From the sequence record NC_047749.1: 64,000 bases of DNA; one strand, 5' to 3'. The notes under the pieces were generated by a model. It had not been told where the DNA came from. It did no database searches and saw nothing but the letters and a program-made list of their open reading frames with translations. Source of the stretch: Escherichia phage DT571/2. A program made the translations under genes and the position numbers. Positions 58,592 to 63,485 of the stretch are shown piece by piece. Positions within the stretch are counted from its first letter, which is position 1. Every line of letters begins with the position of its first letter.

Positions 58592-59968
58592 TTAAGATGC
58601 AGCGTAAGCACCGGATACAACGCCGTTCTCGAAGTAACGTTGCAGGTTAACACGCTGAGTAACGTAGTATGCGTCACGCTGTTTGCCAGCTTGGCGCTCA
58701 CGTTCAACAGTAACAGCACGCTGACGTGGCATCACGAAGTTATCTTTATAAACAATAACTGCGAACTCTTTACCAGCTGCTTTAGCTGGGAAGTACTCAG
58801 AAACTACAACCGGCAGACCATAAATACGACCAACCTGACCCTGCAGTTTAACAGCATCATTACCAACCTGAGCAACATCCTGCCATTCTTCATCTTCCAG
58901 CAGATCGTAGTAAGCATCCATAGATACAATCAGTACCAGTTTGGACAGTTTCAGACCATGACGGCCCAGCTTACGACGCAGTTTAGAGATAGTTTTAGCA
59001 GTTACCAGAACAGAACCATCAGCTTTAGCTTCGGTAGTAACTTTAGCACTATCTTCACTAGCAAGAGTCAGCAGACCTTTCGGCTTACCAGAACCATCAC
59101 CAGTCATGAAGGCTTCTTCAATAGAAACAGCGTGTGCTTCAATTAGACGCTTACGAAGCAGTGGCAGCAGGGAGAAGATTGCATCTTCTTCAGTTTCATC
59201 AGTAATGAAGGATTTAGCAGCCAGTTTGTAAGTACTGAAGTGGATTTCTGTAAGAGCGCCTGTAACTTCGCTACCAGTAGTATTGTCACTACCATAAGCA
59301 GAAGCAGCAACCCAAGTAGCTCTACCAGCATCCGGTTCAACCAACATAGTAAGAATCTTACTGGACATCGGCAGTTCTTCGAACAGTGCGCCAACTACTA
59401 GCTCTTTCTGCAGGTCACGGATAATACGCTGAGAGAAAATAGTTTCATAGCTTTCACTAGAAACTTCTACAGAAGAGGACTGATTCACTGCTTTCAGGTG
59501 TTTTTGACCGTGTTCGGTTTCGAATACGCCTTTTTCCATTACATAGGACAACAGAACCAGTTTTTCTACTTCGTCTTCAAAGGTTTCCTGAGTACCGTAC
59601 AGTGCTTTAGCAACACTATCACCAACGAAGGAACGACCTTCACGAGCTGTTAGCAGAGACTTAATTTCGTCCTGAAGACCAACAATAGTTTCCTGTTGTT
59701 TTTCTACAGTTTGTGCAAACAGTTCTGCACTCTTCTTAGATTTCTCATCCAGAGACTTAACCAGTTCCAGAGCTTGTTCCAGTTTCTGACGATCTTCGCC
59801 AACTGCTTTAGAAACCAGGGCATTCATACGAGCCAGTTCTTTTTCTTCCTGCTCTTTACGCATACGTTCAGCTTCCTGAGCTTTCTGAGCAGCGGTCAGA
59901 CCTTCCAGAGATTTAGCCAGATCACCCAGACCAAGTTCTTCTTTCAGCTTATTAATATCAATAGTCAT
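58592..59968 (-). CDS. Major capsid protein precursor (T5 pb8-like; HK97 fold with N-terminal scaffolding delta domain)
   Basis: 458 aa as T5 pb8; N-terminal ~150-aa coiled-coil scaffold region; highly biased codon usage. Confidence 0.9.
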   Translation of the reverse strand: MTIDINKLKEELGLGDLAKSLEGLTAAQKAQEAERMRKEQEEKELARMNALVSKAVGEDRQKLEQALELVKSLDEKSKKSAELFAQTVEKQQETIVGLQDEIKSLLTAREGRSFVGDSVAKALYGTQETFEDEVEKLVLLSYVMEKGVFETEHGQKHLKAVNQSSSVEVSSESYETIFSQRIIRDLQKELVVGALFEELPMSSKILTMLVEPDAGRATWVAASAYGSDNTTGSEVTGALTEIHFSTYKLAAKSFITDETEEDAIFSLLPLLRKRLIEAHAVSIEEAFMTGDGSGKPKGLLTLASEDSAKVTTEAKADGSVLVTAKTISKLRRKLGRHGLKLSKLVLIVSMDAYYDLLEDEEWQDVAQVGNDAVKLQGQVGRIYGLPVVVSEYFPAKAAGKEFAVIVYKDNFVMPRQRAVTVERERQAGKQRDAYYVTQRVNLQRYFENGVVSGAYAAS

Positions 59969-59985: not shown

Positions 59986-60618
59986 TTATTCTTTAACGTA
60001 GCCTAAAGCTATCGCAAGTTTTTCTAGTTCAGAAAGATTACGTTCTTGAGCTGGGACAGCTTTAGAACTTATTGCAGTAAAAGATTTACGCCATTCAGTA
60101 TAATCATGACCATTCATGCTCTTAGCGAGATTGAATGTTGAGTCCTGATTACAAGGTACAGAAACTACCGAAACTTCGTATAGTTCTAAATCTTTAATAA
60201 TAAATATATCAGTAGCTTCATCCCACTCTGCATCTAGGCAGCGGAATCCGATACTAAAAGTTTTCAGTACACCGTTTTTAATTAGTGAAAAGATAGCTGG
60301 GTCAGAACTTTCATAGATCTCACATTCAATTTCGAGACCCATTTCAGTAGGGTTAAGATCAATACACTTACCGATTGGACGACGATGATCGTGTCCGAAA
60401 AGAATAATCGGGTTTTTCATGTAGTTAGTAAGTGCATTAGACGTTTTCCATGCAGAAGCAGGAATTACATCGCCAGCGCGATCTTTACTAATTGTATTAG
60501 CGAATCCACGGATTTTTACAACGCCCTCTTTGGATTCGCTATCAATAGATTTAATATAAGCATCTAAATGAACGGGTGCTGATTTTAACTTGTTATAGTC
60601 AATAGCAGCTTGTGTCAT
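59986..60618 (-). CDS. Prohead maturation protease (T5 pb11-like, HK97 family)
   Basis: 210 aa; sits between portal/decoration and capsid genes. Confidence 0.85.
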   Translation of the reverse strand: MTQAAIDYNKLKSAPVHLDAYIKSIDSESKEGVVKIRGFANTISKDRAGDVIPASAWKTSNALTNYMKNPIILFGHDHRRPIGKCIDLNPTEMGLEIECEIYESSDPAIFSLIKNGVLKTFSIGFRCLDAEWDEATDIFIIKDLELYEVSVVSVPCNQDSTFNLAKSMNGHDYTEWRKSFTAISSKAVPAQERNLSELEKLAIALGYVKE

Positions 60619-60621
60619 TTA

Positions 60622-61359
60622 TTATTCTCCAGGAACAGTAGGATTAACTGTCACAGCACATGTAGTAGAGTCCTTGCTTACTTGCTTACTATCTGTTACA
60701 GTTACTTTATAAGAGCCGGCATCCTCAGCTGCTGCTGCAGGCTTAGTATAGGTAGCTTCTGAAGCATCCGGAATAGGAGAACCATCTTTAGTCCATGCAT
60801 AAGTATATGGACCAGTACCACCAGTTGCAGTAACAGAAAGTGTTAATGCTGCTCCCTCTTCGACTGACATGCTAGCAGCTAAATCTGTAGAAAGAGTTAA
60901 TGGTGGAATAACCGTAGTCACACACTCAACAGACGTTATACTAGCTTGTTTACTATCAGTAACTACTACTTTATAAGTACCAGCGTCTTCCGCAGCTGCT
61001 GTAGCTTTAGTAAAGTTAGGTCCTGATGCTTCTAGAGGAGAACCATCCTTAGTCCAAGCATACGTATATGGAGCTGTACCGCCACTAACTGTTACGCTTA
61101 GATTAATTGCCGCTCCAGTATCAACTGCCAGAGTGCTATCTAGATCCTTAGTAAAAGCCAGAGGAGGAAATGCTTTATCATAAGCCTCTACAAATTTCTT
61201 CCATACTTTACGGTTAGTATGCGCAGATGAAAGTCCTAGTTCTCTACGCAGAAAAGCATAGCTAGGAACATATTCATGCGCAGCGACCGTAGCAAAGAAG
61301 ATATGAGATTCTGGCAGTTTTTCACCAAAAATGGTCTTTAGACCATTATAATCAATCAT
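60622..61359 (-). CDS. Capsid decoration protein (pb10-like) with two tandem Ig-like domains
   Basis: N-terminal capsid-binding region followed by duplicated VT-x-GGT-x-PYTYAWTKDGSP ... AAAEDAG-x-YKV-x-VTDSKQ modules. Confidence 0.7.
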   Translation of the reverse strand: MIDYNGLKTIFGEKLPESHIFFATVAAHEYVPSYAFLRRELGLSSAHTNRKVWKKFVEAYDKAFPPLAFTKDLDSTLAVDTGAAINLSVTVSGGTAPYTYAWTKDGSPLEASGPNFTKATAAAEDAGTYKVVVTDSKQASITSVECVTTVIPPLTLSTDLAASMSVEEGAALTLSVTATGGTGPYTYAWTKDGSPIPDASEATYTKPAAAAEDAGSYKVTVTDSKQVSKDSTTCAVTVNPTVPGE

Positions 61360-62573
61360 TCTTTATCTCCCTCGGTGGAACCTTGAGGTCTACCACCTTC
61401 TTGACCAGATACACCTGTTGCAGAACCAGCAACGTTAGCAGGAATACGAATCCTATTCATCTGCTCATCATCTAAAGGTTCAAGGTTCAGCTCTAAACGA
61501 GCTTCGTTACCAGTCATAATACCATTATTAACCAATGAGGTTAAATGTTTAGCCTCAGCTTCTTTATCTGGTGTTAATGCAGCTACCTCCTTAGTATTAG
61601 GGGTAATCTTATAACCAAAAAAGAAAGTAAGAGAACTAGTCAGTTTGTTCAGCATAGGAATGATAGTCATATAGTAGAACAATTCGATGTTTGGTCGAAT
61701 ATTCGCATTATTACCACCATCAATCAGTACTTGCGGAACACCAAAGGCTAGACAGATAGATTTATTAAATCCTGCGATGTCTTCCTTAAAGTCTAGATCT
61801 TTAAAAGAGGATATTTGGGAGTACGGTTTAGCTTTCATACCACCATCTAGAATCAGGACAGAAGACTGACCCGTACTAGGATTATAATCGAGTTGTAATT
61901 CTTCTTGTTTACGCTCACGCAATTTCTTGTTCAGGATTTCATCCGTTTCAAGAATAAGACCAATCACGGTTCCGTTATCTAGGAACTTCTCTTTAAAGTT
62001 AAGCATTTTAGAACGCTTCTCAAGAGAGTCAATAACAGTAGCAACACGAGATTGTCCAGAAATTTGAGAATTTGTGCCACACACGTAACTGTTATCCTTT
62101 ATAAAGATAATCTCATCTACGCGATAGTTTATCTGATTATTAAATATAAATTTTTTGATAAACTTATTGGCATCTGCCTCGACCTGCATGAGAGCGGCCG
62201 GGACATGGTAAAGCGATGTGCCATCCCAATAGATGTATGCACAACCCTCAAAAAGTAGGTCAGTGACTACAAGTCTACGGAATGTGCTTATATCCATGAA
62301 TGGATTAGGTCGTACATTTAAGAGAGTGTCTAGAGTCTTTGTTTTGACGCCATTAGCGTACGTAACAATATTATATTTATCTCCGACAGTATAAGAACAC
62401 TCCGCCGCACTATCTATAACCATATTGGCAGTTCGATTGAGAATCTCAATCTTGCTATAGGCTTGTCCAGTGGTAAAAGGCTTACGGTTAGTGCGATGAC
62501 TAACTGGTTCCATGTCTCTTATAATACGTTGACCCGGATTTAGCTTTTCAGTAATCCAGCTTTTAAAACCCAT
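61356..62573 (-). CDS. Portal protein (T5 pb7-like)
   Basis: 405 aa; immediately upstream of protease/decoration genes and downstream of terminase region. Confidence 0.85.
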   Translation of the reverse strand: MGFKSWITEKLNPGQRIIRDMEPVSHRTNRKPFTTGQAYSKIEILNRTANMVIDSAAECSYTVGDKYNIVTYANGVKTKTLDTLLNVRPNPFMDISTFRRLVVTDLLFEGCAYIYWDGTSLYHVPAALMQVEADANKFIKKFIFNNQINYRVDEIIFIKDNSYVCGTNSQISGQSRVATVIDSLEKRSKMLNFKEKFLDNGTVIGLILETDEILNKKLRERKQEELQLDYNPSTGQSSVLILDGGMKAKPYSQISSFKDLDFKEDIAGFNKSICLAFGVPQVLIDGGNNANIRPNIELFYYMTIIPMLNKLTSSLTFFFGYKITPNTKEVAALTPDKEAEAKHLTSLVNNGIMTGNEARLELNLEPLDDEQMNRIRIPANVAGSATGVSGQEGGRPQGSTEGDKE

Positions 62574-63010
62574 TATAAGAACCTTGCGAATCCTGATTTT
62601 GTTTCAGTCTTGACTTGTGTCTTTTCTTGAGGATTCTGTAATTTGTCTTTCTGCTTTTGAACCCATGCTTTCTGTTTATCAGCAGAAAATAATGGAGGTT
62701 CTTTCGTGTAAACCTTATGTAATAGTTGGTGATGGTGCTGGCACAATGTTACCACGTCCCTAACTAACTCATGCTCATATTTCTTGTAGAATGCTTCCCT
62801 ATTTGAAAGGACGATATTCTCATCAGTGAAATCCAGCTGGAGTTCTTTAGCAAATTTTTTTATTAGCTGAGATATAGTATGATAATGGTGAAGTTCTAGG
62901 TCTTCACTACTACCACATATAGCACAGCAACCATCCTTACTATACCTAGATTTTATACCATCCCTCATTATAGAGATGGCATCACGTTTGTACTTAGTAT
63001 TAGTGGCCAT
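62573..63010 (-). CDS. HNH endonuclease associated with terminase/portal
   Basis: CAICGSSEDLELHHYH and LCQHHHQLLH metal-binding/HNH motifs; ATG at 63010 preferred over track TTG 63025. Confidence 0.7.
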   Translation of the reverse strand: MATNTKYKRDAISIMRDGIKSRYSKDGCCAICGSSEDLELHHYHTISQLIKKFAKELQLDFTDENIVLSNREAFYKKYEHELVRDVVTLCQHHHQLLHKVYTKEPPLFSADKQKAWVQKQKDKLQNPQEKTQVKTETKSGFARFL

Positions 63011-63485
63011 AATCCCCCAATCCAAAGCTACTTAGAAAGATTACTATATCCTCTAGGGCAACATTGAGATTCCATCTAATGTGGTATAGCATATATGACC
63101 CTTATTGTGTTATAGATGTAGTTTTTATTATTATAGTTATTTAATAGCACATACTCTATTCTGGGTATTTTGGCTTTAATAGCTACATCTAGTGATATAG
63201 TGTAGAGGTGTAATGTGGTGTTGCTTCCCAAACGTGTGCTCTCTGGCATTTAAATACTGTTTTTGTACGTTGGTTTACATATTCACCGACAATTTGGATT
63301 CCACGATCAGCTAATCTAATATTTATATCTTTTATTGTTAGCTTTTGTCGACCCGTAGAATCTCCTACACCTCATGTAGAGCATTAATTTTTTCTTGTTT
63401 ACGTTCTATTATGGGAGAAGTTCTCCCGATCAATGAATATAGTATACATAATCGTATCGAATTTGTAAAGGGGATTTTAAAATAC

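What the first reader, a model, noticed from the sequence alone, without database searches (positions are those of the whole stretch)
60640..61152. Capsid decoration protein with a duplicated Ig-like domain
The pb10-like gene encodes two consecutive, clearly homologous Ig-like modules (VTVSGGTAPYTYAWTKDGSP...AAAEDAGTYKVVVTDSKQ and VTATGGTGPYTYAWTKDGSP...AAAEDAGSYKVTVTDSKQ) after the capsid-binding N-terminus, making it 245 aa. T5 pb10 is shorter and, as I recall it, has a single Ig-like domain. Extra surface Ig domains may alter adhesion to carbohydrates or mucus.
Basis: partly seen in the sequence, partly recalled or inferred. Interest (0 to 1): 0.4.

Follow-up and report, generated by a model that had tools for sequence, protein, structure and literature searches.

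The report
Two-Ig capsid decoration protein, DT57C
The head decoration protein of the T5-like phage DT57C does carry two Ig-like domains where T5 has one, but this is already published for this phage, and the extra domain is a different variant of the domain joined on by recombination, not a fresh copy.

Summary
The window is Escherichia phage DT57C. The gene at 60622..61359 (-) encodes a 245-aa pb10-type decoration protein. It has an N-terminal capsid-binding domain (aa 1-64) and two Ig-like domains (aa 68-151 and 155-239). The two Ig domains are 60% identical in protein and 67% in DNA. T5 pb10 has 164 aa and one Ig domain.

This is already known. Ayala et al. 2023 (PMC10713586) describe the extra, divergent Ig-like domain of the DT57C protein. 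Vernhes et al. 2017 (PMC5292684) noted two- and three-domain forms among T5-like phages.

"Duplicated" is only partly right. Ig2 is the T5-type domain ("B", 95% identical to T5). Ig1 is a different type ("A"). It is 83-90% identical to the only Ig domain of EPS7-like phages and of some Tequintaviruses. Synonymous sites between Ig1 and Ig2 are heavily diverged.

All five A+B genes read here at the DNA level share one junction, and the three metagenomic A+B proteins show the same junction peptide. That fits a single illegitimate recombination that stacked two allelic cassettes. A+B forms are rare: 7 phages among about 440 T5-like records. The cassette (A, B, FN3 or A+B) is exchanged independently of its conserved flanks. 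One metagenomic gene looks like a collapsed tandem, shorter by exactly 264 nt.

Glycan or mucus binding is untested. The finding is ordinary and of low interest.

The parts
60622..61359 (-). dec (pb10-type head decoration protein) gene. It encodes 245 aa; the CDS is 60625..61359 and the stop codon TAA is at 60622..60624.
   Evidence: ORF list. 100% identical to the DT57C dec gene, KM979354 92272..93006. PHROG 2973 'Hoc-like head decoration', E 1e-108.
61168..61359 (-). N-terminal alpha-helical capsid-binding domain (aa 1-64). It contains the family motif F-G-x2-L-P-x4-F-F (FGEKLPESHIFF, aa 11-22).
   Evidence: Pfam PF21393 at aa 2-60, E 2.4e-37. About 93% identical to T5 pb10 aa 1-67 in PDB 8zvi and 5lxl, counted from the alignment printed. 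Predicted helices at aa 4-63.
61159..61167 (-). Short Pro-Pro-Leu linker (aa 65-67) between the N-domain and Ig1. It is 3 aa shorter than in the 248-aa A+B forms and 6 aa shorter than in the single-A Tequintavirus forms.
   Evidence: Codon-level comparison of linkers.
60907..61158 (-). Ig1 (aa 68-151), the extra Ig-like domain of allele type A.
   Evidence: tblastn with Ig1 alone: 88-90.6% identical to the only Ig domain of Kenya-K42, VAH1 and NBSal005, and 83.5% to EPS7 and Stitch. Falls in the A clade of the NJ tree. Predicted strands at aa 68-151, pLDDT >90.
60898..60906 (-). Ig1-to-Ig2 junction, Pro-Pro-Leu (aa 152-154). This is the recombination joint between the last strand of a type-A Ig and the end of the Pro-rich linker that precedes a type-B Ig.
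   Evidence: The same junction...ACA GTT A[CT]T CCT|CCA TTA ACT CTT TCT, occurs in DT57C, Gostya9, vB_Sen_H9, 3sent1 and GEC_vB_N5. Its left side matches the 3' end of single-A genes and its right side matches the linker of single-B genes.
60643..60897 (-). Ig2 (aa 155-239), the T5-type (type B) Ig-like domain.
   Evidence: Matches T5 pb10 aa 70-163 almost residue for residue (PDB 8zvi and 5lxk). 95.3% identical to the T5 Ig in the domain alignment. Predicted strands at aa 155-239.
60625..60642 (-). C-terminal tail PTVPGE (aa 240-245). It is followed by tandem stop codons TAA TAA and then directly by the prohead protease ATG at 60618.
   Evidence: Sequence read directly.
61356..61373 (-). Translation start context. 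A Shine-Dalgarno-like GAGGGAG lies at 61367..61373, 7 nt upstream of the ATG. The dec ATG overlaps the portal stop codon (ATGA, 61356..61359).
   Evidence: Sequence read directly. Portal ORF at 61356..62573.

Best explanation
This is the head decoration protein (Dec/DCP, the pb10 homologue) of phage DT57C.

How it works. The N-terminal helical domain anchors one copy at the centre of each capsid hexamer. That is shown for T5 (120 hexamers), and cryo-EM density is seen there in DT57C. From the anchor, two Ig-like beta-sandwiches joined by very short Pro-Pro-Leu linkers project into the solvent as a flexible string. If, as in T5, there are 120 copies, the capsid would display 240 Ig domains, double the T5 number (inferred).

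How it arose. The pb10 display module is a swappable cassette. It sits between a conserved N-domain plus portal gene on one side and a conserved protease gene on the other. It exists as type A Ig, type B Ig, an FN3 domain, or A+B. DT57C carries A+B. The T5-type B domain is kept at the C-terminus, and a long-diverged A-type domain has been joined in front of it. The most likely route is a single illegitimate (microhomology-level) recombination between an A-allele gene and a B-allele gene. That event fused the last strand of A, minus its NPGVGG tail, to the last codons of the linker preceding B. The A+B cassette then spread and diversified by homologous recombination in the conserved flanks. It can collapse again, by recombination in the conserved PYTYAWTK(D/N)GSP core, into single chimeric A/B domains.

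Likely function (inferred, not shown). The capsid stabilisation known for T5 pb10 comes from the N-domain. The Ig domains probably give weak, multivalent adhesion to carbohydrates on bacteria or mucus. The second domain would add reach and a second surface.
For: Identity and architecture.

Published cryo-EM and description of DT57C: density at every hexamer centre, Ig-like domains visible at a lower contour level, and an explicit statement of an inserted additional divergent Ig-like domain (PMC10713586).

T5 pb10: binds with picomolar affinity through the N-terminal domain, has a flexible exposed C-terminal domain, and stabilises the capsid against DNA release (PMC5292684).

Origin of Ig1:
- Ig1 is 83.5-90.6% identical to the sole Ig of A-type phages and 60% to Ig2.
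- Ig2 is 95% identical to the T5 Ig.
- Only 25 of 54 conserved residues keep the same codon, and the longest exact in-register run is 12 nt.
- In the NJ tree every Ig1 falls in clade A and every Ig2 in clade B.
- Intermediate single-domain alleles (P0046, P0053, P0054) fit allelic divergence.

Single junction: the same codon-level joint occurs in all five A+B genes read as DNA. It matches the A 3' end on the left and the B linker on the right. The three metagenomic A+B proteins carry the same TVTPPL junction peptide.

Rarity: the junction-spanning query is fully covered in one piece only in Gostya9, 3sent1, GEC_vB_N5, GE_vB_N5 and vB_Sen_H9. DT57C itself and GE_vB_N8 are covered in two pieces. 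This is out of 439 T5-like records. A further 4 metagenomic 90%-identity clusters exist.

Cassette behaviour: cassette type does not follow flank similarity. DT57C flanks are 98.7% identical to a B-only phage and to an A-only phage, but 94.9-97.5% to other A+B phages. An FN3 cassette sits in the same slot.

Collapse: the gene in L038 equals the A+B gene in L037 minus exactly 264 nt. The single breakpoint lies in a sequence shared by both repeats. 465 of 483 nt match, and the flanks are 96-98.7% identical.
Against: The direction of events cannot be proved from sequence alone. The Tequintavirus single-A forms (Kenya-K42, VAH1, NBSal005) nest inside the clade of Ig1 domains of two-domain proteins. 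Some single-domain forms may therefore derive from A+B by loss, and an older two-domain ancestor is not excluded.

A and B are themselves homologous, so at some deep level a duplication could still underlie them.

The tree is a simple NJ tree on 85 columns without bootstrap, and recombination within the domain (chimeras) blurs it.

The L038 chimera could also come from recombination between separate A and B alleles in a co-infection.

No binding partner of any pb10 Ig domain has been shown, so the functional part is inference by analogy with T4 Hoc.
Confidence: 0.7

Rival explanations
1. In-gene tandem duplication. The pb10 Ig domain of a T5-like ancestor of DT57C was duplicated in place, and the upstream copy then diverged.
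For: The two modules are clearly homologous (E 1e-32). They are adjacent and in the same orientation, with a 264-nt period. They share identical core motifs, GGTxPYTYAWTKDGSP and AAAEDAGxYKVxVTDSKQ.
Against: Ig1 is far closer (83-98%) to the sole Ig domain of other phages than to its neighbour Ig2 (60%). Synonymous sites are heavily diverged. Yet the flanks and Ig2 are 95-99% identical to single-domain phages. So the divergence between Ig1 and Ig2 long predates the two-domain gene's separation from its single-domain relatives.
Confidence: 0.08
2. Ancient duplication with reciprocal loss. The common ancestor of Tequintavirus and Epseptimavirus carried N-A-B. Most lineages then lost A (T5 type) or B (EPS7 type), and DT57C and a few others retain the ancestral state.
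For: Loss is mechanistically easy. A collapse product that differs by exactly one 264-nt unit exists. The single-A Tequintavirus forms nest within the Ig1 clade of two-domain proteins and carry the Tequintavirus-type NPGVGG tail. The A+B forms are themselves diverse, 80-98% identical.
Against: A+B occurs in only about 2% of records, and only in Tequintavirus. No Epseptimavirus-type gene seen here, with its divergent N-domain, has two domains. The Ig1-Ig2 joint lacks the normal Pro-rich linker and looks like a truncated fusion, not an old, polished linker. Single-domain alleles intermediate between A and B exist (P0046, P0053, P0054). An unrelated FN3 cassette occupies the same slot, which shows replacement rather than loss.
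Confidence: 0.17
3. Artefact. The repeat is an assembly or annotation error and the real protein has one Ig domain.
For: Repeats can be mis-assembled. Two of the records with the junction (GE_vB_N5 and GE_vB_N8) are unverified, and GE_vB_N8 is frameshifted.
Against: The copies are only 67-75% identical in DNA, so an assembler would not confuse them. The reading frame is intact in DT57C, Gostya9, vB_Sen_H9, 3sent1, GEC_vB_N5 and four metagenomic clusters. The DT57C cryo-EM paper reports the three-domain protein on the capsid.
Confidence: 0.01

Closest known systems
Phage T5 decoration protein pb10 (gp151/N5; PDB 5LXK, 5LXL, 8ZVI; Pfam PF21393 Phage_pb10_N)
   Same: [quoted passage not shown] The gene sits at the same position between portal and prohead protease. 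The C-terminal Ig domain is the same type, 95% identical. The binding site at the hexamer centre is the same (literature).
   Different: DT57C has 245 aa against 164 aa. An 84-aa type-A Ig domain sits between the N-domain and the T5-type Ig. The Pro-rich linker PPAPPAPP of T5 is reduced to PPL at both joints.
Decoration proteins of EPS7/Stitch-like phages (Epseptimavirus) and of Kenya-K42, VAH1 and NBSal005 (single type-A Ig)
   Same: Their only Ig domain is the counterpart of DT57C Ig1, 83.5-90.6% identical.
   Different: They have one Ig domain (160-163 aa in total). The Epseptimavirus N-domain is only 75-79% identical in DNA. Their A domain ends with a free C-terminal tail instead of being fused to a second Ig.
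Two-domain pb10 of Gostya9, vB_Sen_H9, 3sent1 and GEC_vB_N5
   Same: Same N-A-B architecture and the same A/B junction. Gostya9 is 97.6% identical.
   Different: The Salmonella-phage versions have 248 aa (a linker 3 aa longer) and are 85-89% identical. Their flanks are not the closest to DT57C.
T4 Hoc and Hoc-like proteins (PDB 3SHS)
   Same: It works alike: one monomer at the centre of each hexamer, a capsid-binding domain plus a string of Ig-like domains, and a variable number of Ig domains among relatives (PMC10385173). The Ig domains are detectably similar (E 3e-7 by sequence, Foldseek E 1e-10).
   Different: In Hoc the capsid-binding domain is C-terminal and unrelated to PF21393. T4 Hoc has three Ig-like domains plus a C-terminal capsid-binding domain. 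DT57C Dec is not a member of the Hoc family, despite the PHROG and RefSeq label 'Hoc-like'.
More distant pb10_N proteins with Big_2 domains (P0011 with one, P0019 and P0022 with two, P0013 with 414 aa)
   Same: The same N-terminal anchor with a variable number of C-terminal beta-sandwich display domains.
   Different: A different Ig superfamily class (Big_2, PF02368), so the multiplication is independent.

Membership tests
[quoted passage not shown] | N-terminal alpha-helical capsid-binding domain (Pfam PF21393) with the motif F-G-x2-L-P-x4-5-F-F | tested here: met
   PF21393 at aa 2-60, E 2.4e-37, 127.5 bits against a cut-off of 27. FGEKLPESHIFF at aa 11-22 (motif as given in PMC5292684). Aligns residue for residue with T5 pb10 aa 1-67. 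Predicted helices at aa 4-63.
[quoted passage not shown] | Gene lies between the portal and prohead protease genes of the head module | tested here: met
   Portal at 61356..62573, dec at 60622..61359, protease at 59986..60618 and major capsid protein at 58592..59968, all on the minus strand. The same order is seen in Gostya9, EPS7, VAH1 and 3sent1.
[quoted passage not shown] | Solvent-exposed C-terminal display domain (Ig-like in T5) | tested here: met
   Two Ig-like domains. Pfam Ig_3 scores 62.6 bits, Ig_2 60.8 and I-set 49.4, all above their cut-offs. Model and fold matches.
[quoted passage not shown] | Binds as a monomer at the centre of capsid hexamers | not testable with these tools
   Literature only. 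Cryo-EM of DT57C shows density at each hexamer centre that was assigned to this protein (PMC10713586).
Recent tandem domain duplication | The two copies are each other's closest relatives | tested here: not met
   Ig1 against Ig2 is 60%. Ig1 against the sole Ig of A-type phages is 83.5-90.6%, and Ig2 against the T5 Ig is 95%.
Recent tandem domain duplication | Low synonymous divergence between the copies | tested here: not met
   Overall nucleotide identity is 67%. Only 25 of 54 identical residues use the same codon.
T4 Hoc family | Hoc-type C-terminal capsid-binding domain following the Ig-like domains | tested here: not met
   The capsid-binding domain here is N-terminal and belongs to PF21393. 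Similarity to RB49 Hoc (3shs) is confined to the Ig region, aa 69-230.
Immunoglobulin-like (I-set/C2-like) phage surface domains | Beta-sandwich Ig fold | tested here: met
   The AF2 model has pLDDT 90-97 over aa 68-239. Foldseek probability is 1.00 to tandem Ig domains of titin, Sidekick, Dscam and MALT1, E down to 7e-14. This rests on a prediction, not an experimental structure, for Ig1. For Ig2 it rests on 95% identity to the solved T5 domain 5LXK.

The most novel reading that the evidence does not exclude
The pb10 display module may work as a recombination-driven cassette system. Co-circulating T5-like phages would swap A, B and FN3 cassettes through the conserved portal/N-domain and protease flanks. 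The rare A+B tandem would be an intermediate in an expansion-collapse cycle: illegitimate fusion first, then homologous collapse in the conserved PYTYAWTK(D/N)GSP core. That cycle would create new chimeric Ig domains such as P0028 and P0034, a simple way to diversify a capsid-surface adhesin.
Probability: 0.3. Interest if true: 0.4.

Novelty: already known. Interest (0 to 1): 0.18.

Why it matters
Decoration proteins with Ig-like domains are thought to help phages stick to bacterial surfaces or mucus. pb10 is also being developed as a display platform with picomolar capsid affinity for vaccines on T5 capsids (PMC10766600, abstract).

A natural three-domain pb10 shows that the anchor tolerates longer cargo. 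The extra domain turns out to be a stacked allele and not a fresh duplicate. This gives a small, concrete example of how phage surface domains are shuffled.

None of this changes current understanding. The architecture is published for this very phage, and the function of the Ig domains remains as open as before.

Tried and rejected
- The search for homologous proteins with the 67-aa N-domain alone returned only 7 short fragments and was of no use for a length census. The full-length query and the representative search were used instead.
- DT571/2 (KM979355), the sister phage of DT57C, is not in the phage collection, so its state could not be checked. The DT57C and DT571/2 tail-fibre paper does not mention the decoration protein.
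- I looked for a donor of Ig1 elsewhere in the window, for example the tail tube protein's Ig-like domain. tblastn of Ig1 and Ig2 against the 64-kb window finds only the two domains themselves. An intragenomic donor within this window is rejected.
- An IMG/VR scan gave 27 T5-like loci, none of them with two domains. It was useful as a background set only.
- P0016, a 657-aa hit to the N-domain, is a low-complexity repetitive protein and was discarded.
- My regex typing labelled 3sent1 and GEC_vB_N5 as 'AAB'. This is an artefact of the motif SFTK inside Ig1; they are A+B.
- GE_vB_N8 carries the junction, but the record is unverified and frameshifted, so it was counted with caution.
- No bootstrap or model-based phylogeny was done. 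The domain is short and recombinant, so a better tree would not settle the direction of events.

Full report
**What the window is and what is at the coordinates.** The 245-aa ORF at 60622..61359 on the minus strand is 100% identical to the dec ("decorating protein") gene of Escherichia phage DT57C, KM979354/NC_027356. So the window is DT57C, a T5-like siphophage. The gene lies in the head module: portal at 61356..62573, dec, prohead protease at 59986..60618 and major capsid protein at 58592..59968, all on the minus strand. The dec ATG overlaps the portal stop codon (ATGA). It is preceded by GAGGGAG. The gene ends with TAA TAA, immediately followed by the protease ATG.

**Check of the observation.** Pfam finds the pb10 N-terminal capsid-binding domain at aa 2-60 (E 2.4e-37). 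It also finds two stretches each of Ig_3, Ig_2 and I-set above their curated cut-offs. They align over 89 columns with 54 identities and one gap. BLASTP gives E 1e-32. At the DNA level they form a direct repeat with 264-nt spacing. The PDB sequence search shows that T5 pb10 (8zvi) has 164 aa. DT57C aa 1-67 match T5 aa 1-67, DT57C aa 151-244 match T5 aa 70-163, and aa ~68-150 are extra. An AlphaFold2 model built on 34 homologues has mean pLDDT 90.6. It shows helices at aa 4-63 and two beta-sandwiches at aa 68-151 and 155-239. Its best PDB fold matches are tandem I-set Ig arrays (titin, Sidekick, Dscam, MALT1), and RB49 Hoc also matches.

**It is already published.** Ayala et al. 2023 (Nat Commun, PMC10713586) solved the DT57C virion. 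[quoted passage not shown] They see density at the centre of every hexamer, and the Ig-like domains appear at a lower contour level. Vernhes et al. [quoted passage not shown] They noted that these "exhibit two or three domains", with a conserved N-terminal domain and highly divergent C-terminal domains.

**Where the extra domain comes from.**
- A tblastn with Ig1 alone shows it is 88-90.6% identical to the only Ig domain of the Tequintaviruses Kenya-K42, VAH1 and NBSal005. It is 83.5% identical to the only Ig domain of EPS7, Stitch and some 200 other records.
- Ig1 is only 60% identical to its neighbour Ig2.
- Ig2 is 95% identical to the T5 domain.

I extracted the pb10 genes from 36 loci and from the protein hits. 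The C-terminal display module comes in discrete types:
- A ("LAFTKNL...GGTAPYTYAWTKDGSPL...YKVVVTDSK...ECVTTV")
- B ("LTLSKDL...GGTGPYTYAWTKDGSPIP...YKVTVTDSKQVSKDST.C.VTV")
- C, a fibronectin type III domain (PF00041)
- A+B

In an NJ tree of the domains, every Ig1 of a two-domain protein falls in clade A and every Ig2 in clade B. Between DT57C Ig1 and Ig2 the DNA identity is 67%. Only 25 of the 54 identical residues use the same codon, and the longest exact in-register run is 12 nt. The A/B split is therefore old. Yet the two-domain gene as a whole is 95-99% identical to single-domain relatives in its N-domain, its Ig2 and its flanks. So this is not a recent in-place duplication.

**The junction.** All five A+B genes available as DNA (DT57C, Gostya9, vB_Sen_H9, 3sent1, GEC_vB_N5) have the same joint...ACA GTT A[CT]T CCT | CCA TTA ACT CTT TCT... 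Its left side matches the 3' end of single-A genes (...ACA GTT AAT CCT | GGT GTT GGA GGC TAA). Its right side matches the end of the Pro-rich linker of single-B genes (...GCT CCA | CCA TTA ACT CTT TCT). The metagenomic A+B proteins P0025, P0026 and P0027 have the same TVTPPL joint. One shared joint with only a few bases of possible homology points to a single illegitimate recombination. That event fused an A-type gene, minus its NPGVGG tail, to the linker and Ig of a B-type gene.

**How common it is.** A query spanning the junction is covered end to end in one piece only in Gostya9, 3sent1, GEC_vB_N5, GE_vB_N5 and vB_Sen_H9. DT57C itself and the frameshifted, unverified GE_vB_N8 are covered in two pieces. 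That makes seven phages among 439 T5-like records. For comparison, about 214 records have an A-type domain, about 164 have a B-type domain and 26 have the FN3 type; these counts include RefSeq/GenBank duplicates. In the 5.8-billion-protein collection there are five 90%-identity clusters of A+B forms against dozens of single-domain clusters.

**Cassette behaviour.** The portal 3' end and the protease 5' end are 94-99% identical across all these phages, including Epseptimavirus. The N-domain drops to 75-79% in Epseptimavirus, and the Ig cassette to 67% between A and B. Cassette type does not follow flank similarity. Apart from Gostya9, the closest flanks to DT57C belong to a B-only phage (L008) and an A-only phage (Kenya-K42), both 98.7% identical. 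Other A+B phages are 94.9-97.5%. This fits exchange of the cassette by homologous recombination in the conserved flanks.

**Collapse of the tandem.** Two single-domain proteins, P0028 and P0034, are A in their first half and B in their second half. The switch lies in the conserved PYTYAWTK(D/N)GSP core. I fetched the DNA for P0034 (L038) and for the A+B protein P0027 (L037). The 483-nt gene equals the 747-nt gene minus exactly 264 nt. There is one breakpoint, inside a stretch shared by both repeats (TGGACTAAAAATGGCTC). 465 of 483 positions match, and the flanks are 96-98.7% identical. This is what homologous collapse of the tandem would produce. Recombination between separate A and B alleles cannot be excluded.

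**Caveats on direction.** The Tequintavirus single-A forms nest within the Ig1 clade next to vB_Sen_H9 (97.6% identical). They also carry the Tequintavirus-type NPGVGG tail. Some single-A genes may therefore be secondary losses from A+B. An older two-domain ancestor with reciprocal losses remains possible; I give it about 0.17. Several points argue against it:
- A+B forms are rare and found only in Tequintavirus.
- The inter-domain joint is truncated.
- Single-domain alleles intermediate between A and B exist (P0046, P0053, P0054).
- An unrelated FN3 cassette occupies the same slot.

**How it most likely works.**
[quoted passage not shown] The Ig domain is flexible and exposed (PMC5292684).
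- Shown for DT57C: there is density at the hexamer centres, and the Ig-like domains are poorly ordered (PMC10713586).
- Inferred: the DT57C protein is the same anchor carrying a string of two different Ig domains joined by PPL linkers. If the copy number is 120 as in T5, the capsid would display 240 Ig domains. The second domain would add reach and a second surface.
- Hypothesis only: weak carbohydrate or mucus adhesion, by analogy with T4 Hoc.

**Comparison with known families.** It is a member of the pb10 family. The N-domain, the motif, the gene position and the display domain were all tested and met. The capsid site is known from the literature only. It works like Hoc but is not a Hoc family member, because the anchor is N-terminal and unrelated. 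More distant pb10_N proteins carry one or two Big_2 domains or much longer C-terminal parts (P0011, P0019, P0022, P0013, P0023). Variable domain number on this anchor is therefore a general theme, as it is for Hoc (PMC10385173).

**Verdict.** The feature is real and correctly spotted, but it is already described for this phage. The added value here is the origin of the extra domain: stacking of two allelic cassettes at a single junction, with later exchange and collapse. This is a modest refinement. Novelty: already known. Interest: 0.18.

Noticed in passing
L023-L026 (gene at 1501-1989 in each); also Salmonella phages SE8, SP3, Th1, Stp1 and Escherichia phage vB_EcoS_I14: In about 26 T5-like records the pb10 Ig domain is replaced by a fibronectin type III domain (PF00041) on the same conserved N-terminal anchor. 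The nearest relatives of this FN3 domain outside T5-like phages are in Lactobacillus plantarum phages, at 41-54% identity.
   Followed up: partly
L038 1501-1983 compared with L037 1501-2247 (proteins P0034 and P0027); also P0028: These are single-domain pb10 genes whose Ig is A-type in the first half and B-type in the second. The L038 gene equals the two-domain L037 gene minus exactly 264 nt, with one breakpoint in the conserved WTKNGS-coding stretch. This is an apparent collapse of the tandem.
   Followed up: yes
P0011, P0019, P0022, P0013, P0023, P0012 (metagenomic pb10_N proteins): More distant proteins with the pb10 N-terminal anchor carry one or two Big_2 domains (158, 239 and 248 aa). 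Others have much longer C-terminal parts of 414 and 627 aa, or an unassigned 170-aa part (P0012). Display-domain number and type therefore vary widely on this anchor.
   Followed up: partly
window 59986-62573 and the corresponding parts of L001-L036: pb10 is a local island of divergence. The portal 3' end and protease 5' end stay 94-99% identical even between Tequintavirus and Epseptimavirus. The pb10 N-domain falls to 75-79% and the Ig cassette to about 67%. Cassette type does not follow flank similarity.
   Followed up: partly
GenBank records of pb10 homologues; L032 (GEC_vB_N5): The decoration protein is widely mis-annotated as tail fiber, neck whiskers, tail protein, major tail subunit or fibritin. 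In GEC_vB_N5 the 248-aa gene is not called at all, and small spurious ORFs are annotated in its place.
   Followed up: no
window 62573-63025 (-): The 150-aa ORF just upstream of the portal gene corresponds to the gene annotated sciA, nicking site-specific endonuclease, in Gostya9. At the same position in L037 and L038 the gene hits PF26848 (Phage_T5_Nicking_endo). This is probably the enzyme behind the single-strand nicks of T5-like genomes.
   Followed up: no
L033 (GE_vB_N8, MG969413) 1400-2030: The dec region of this unverified record is broken into several reading frames, most likely by sequencing errors. It still spans the A/B junction.
   Followed up: partly
PMC10713586, Table 1: The DT57C structure paper lists the decoration protein as 62% identical to T5 pb10, with matching regions 'Hexon-binding (1-64); Ig-like (65-142)'. 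The matching Ig region there appears to be given in coordinates that do not correspond to the T5-type domain, which is aa 155-239 in DT57C by my alignment.
   Followed up: no
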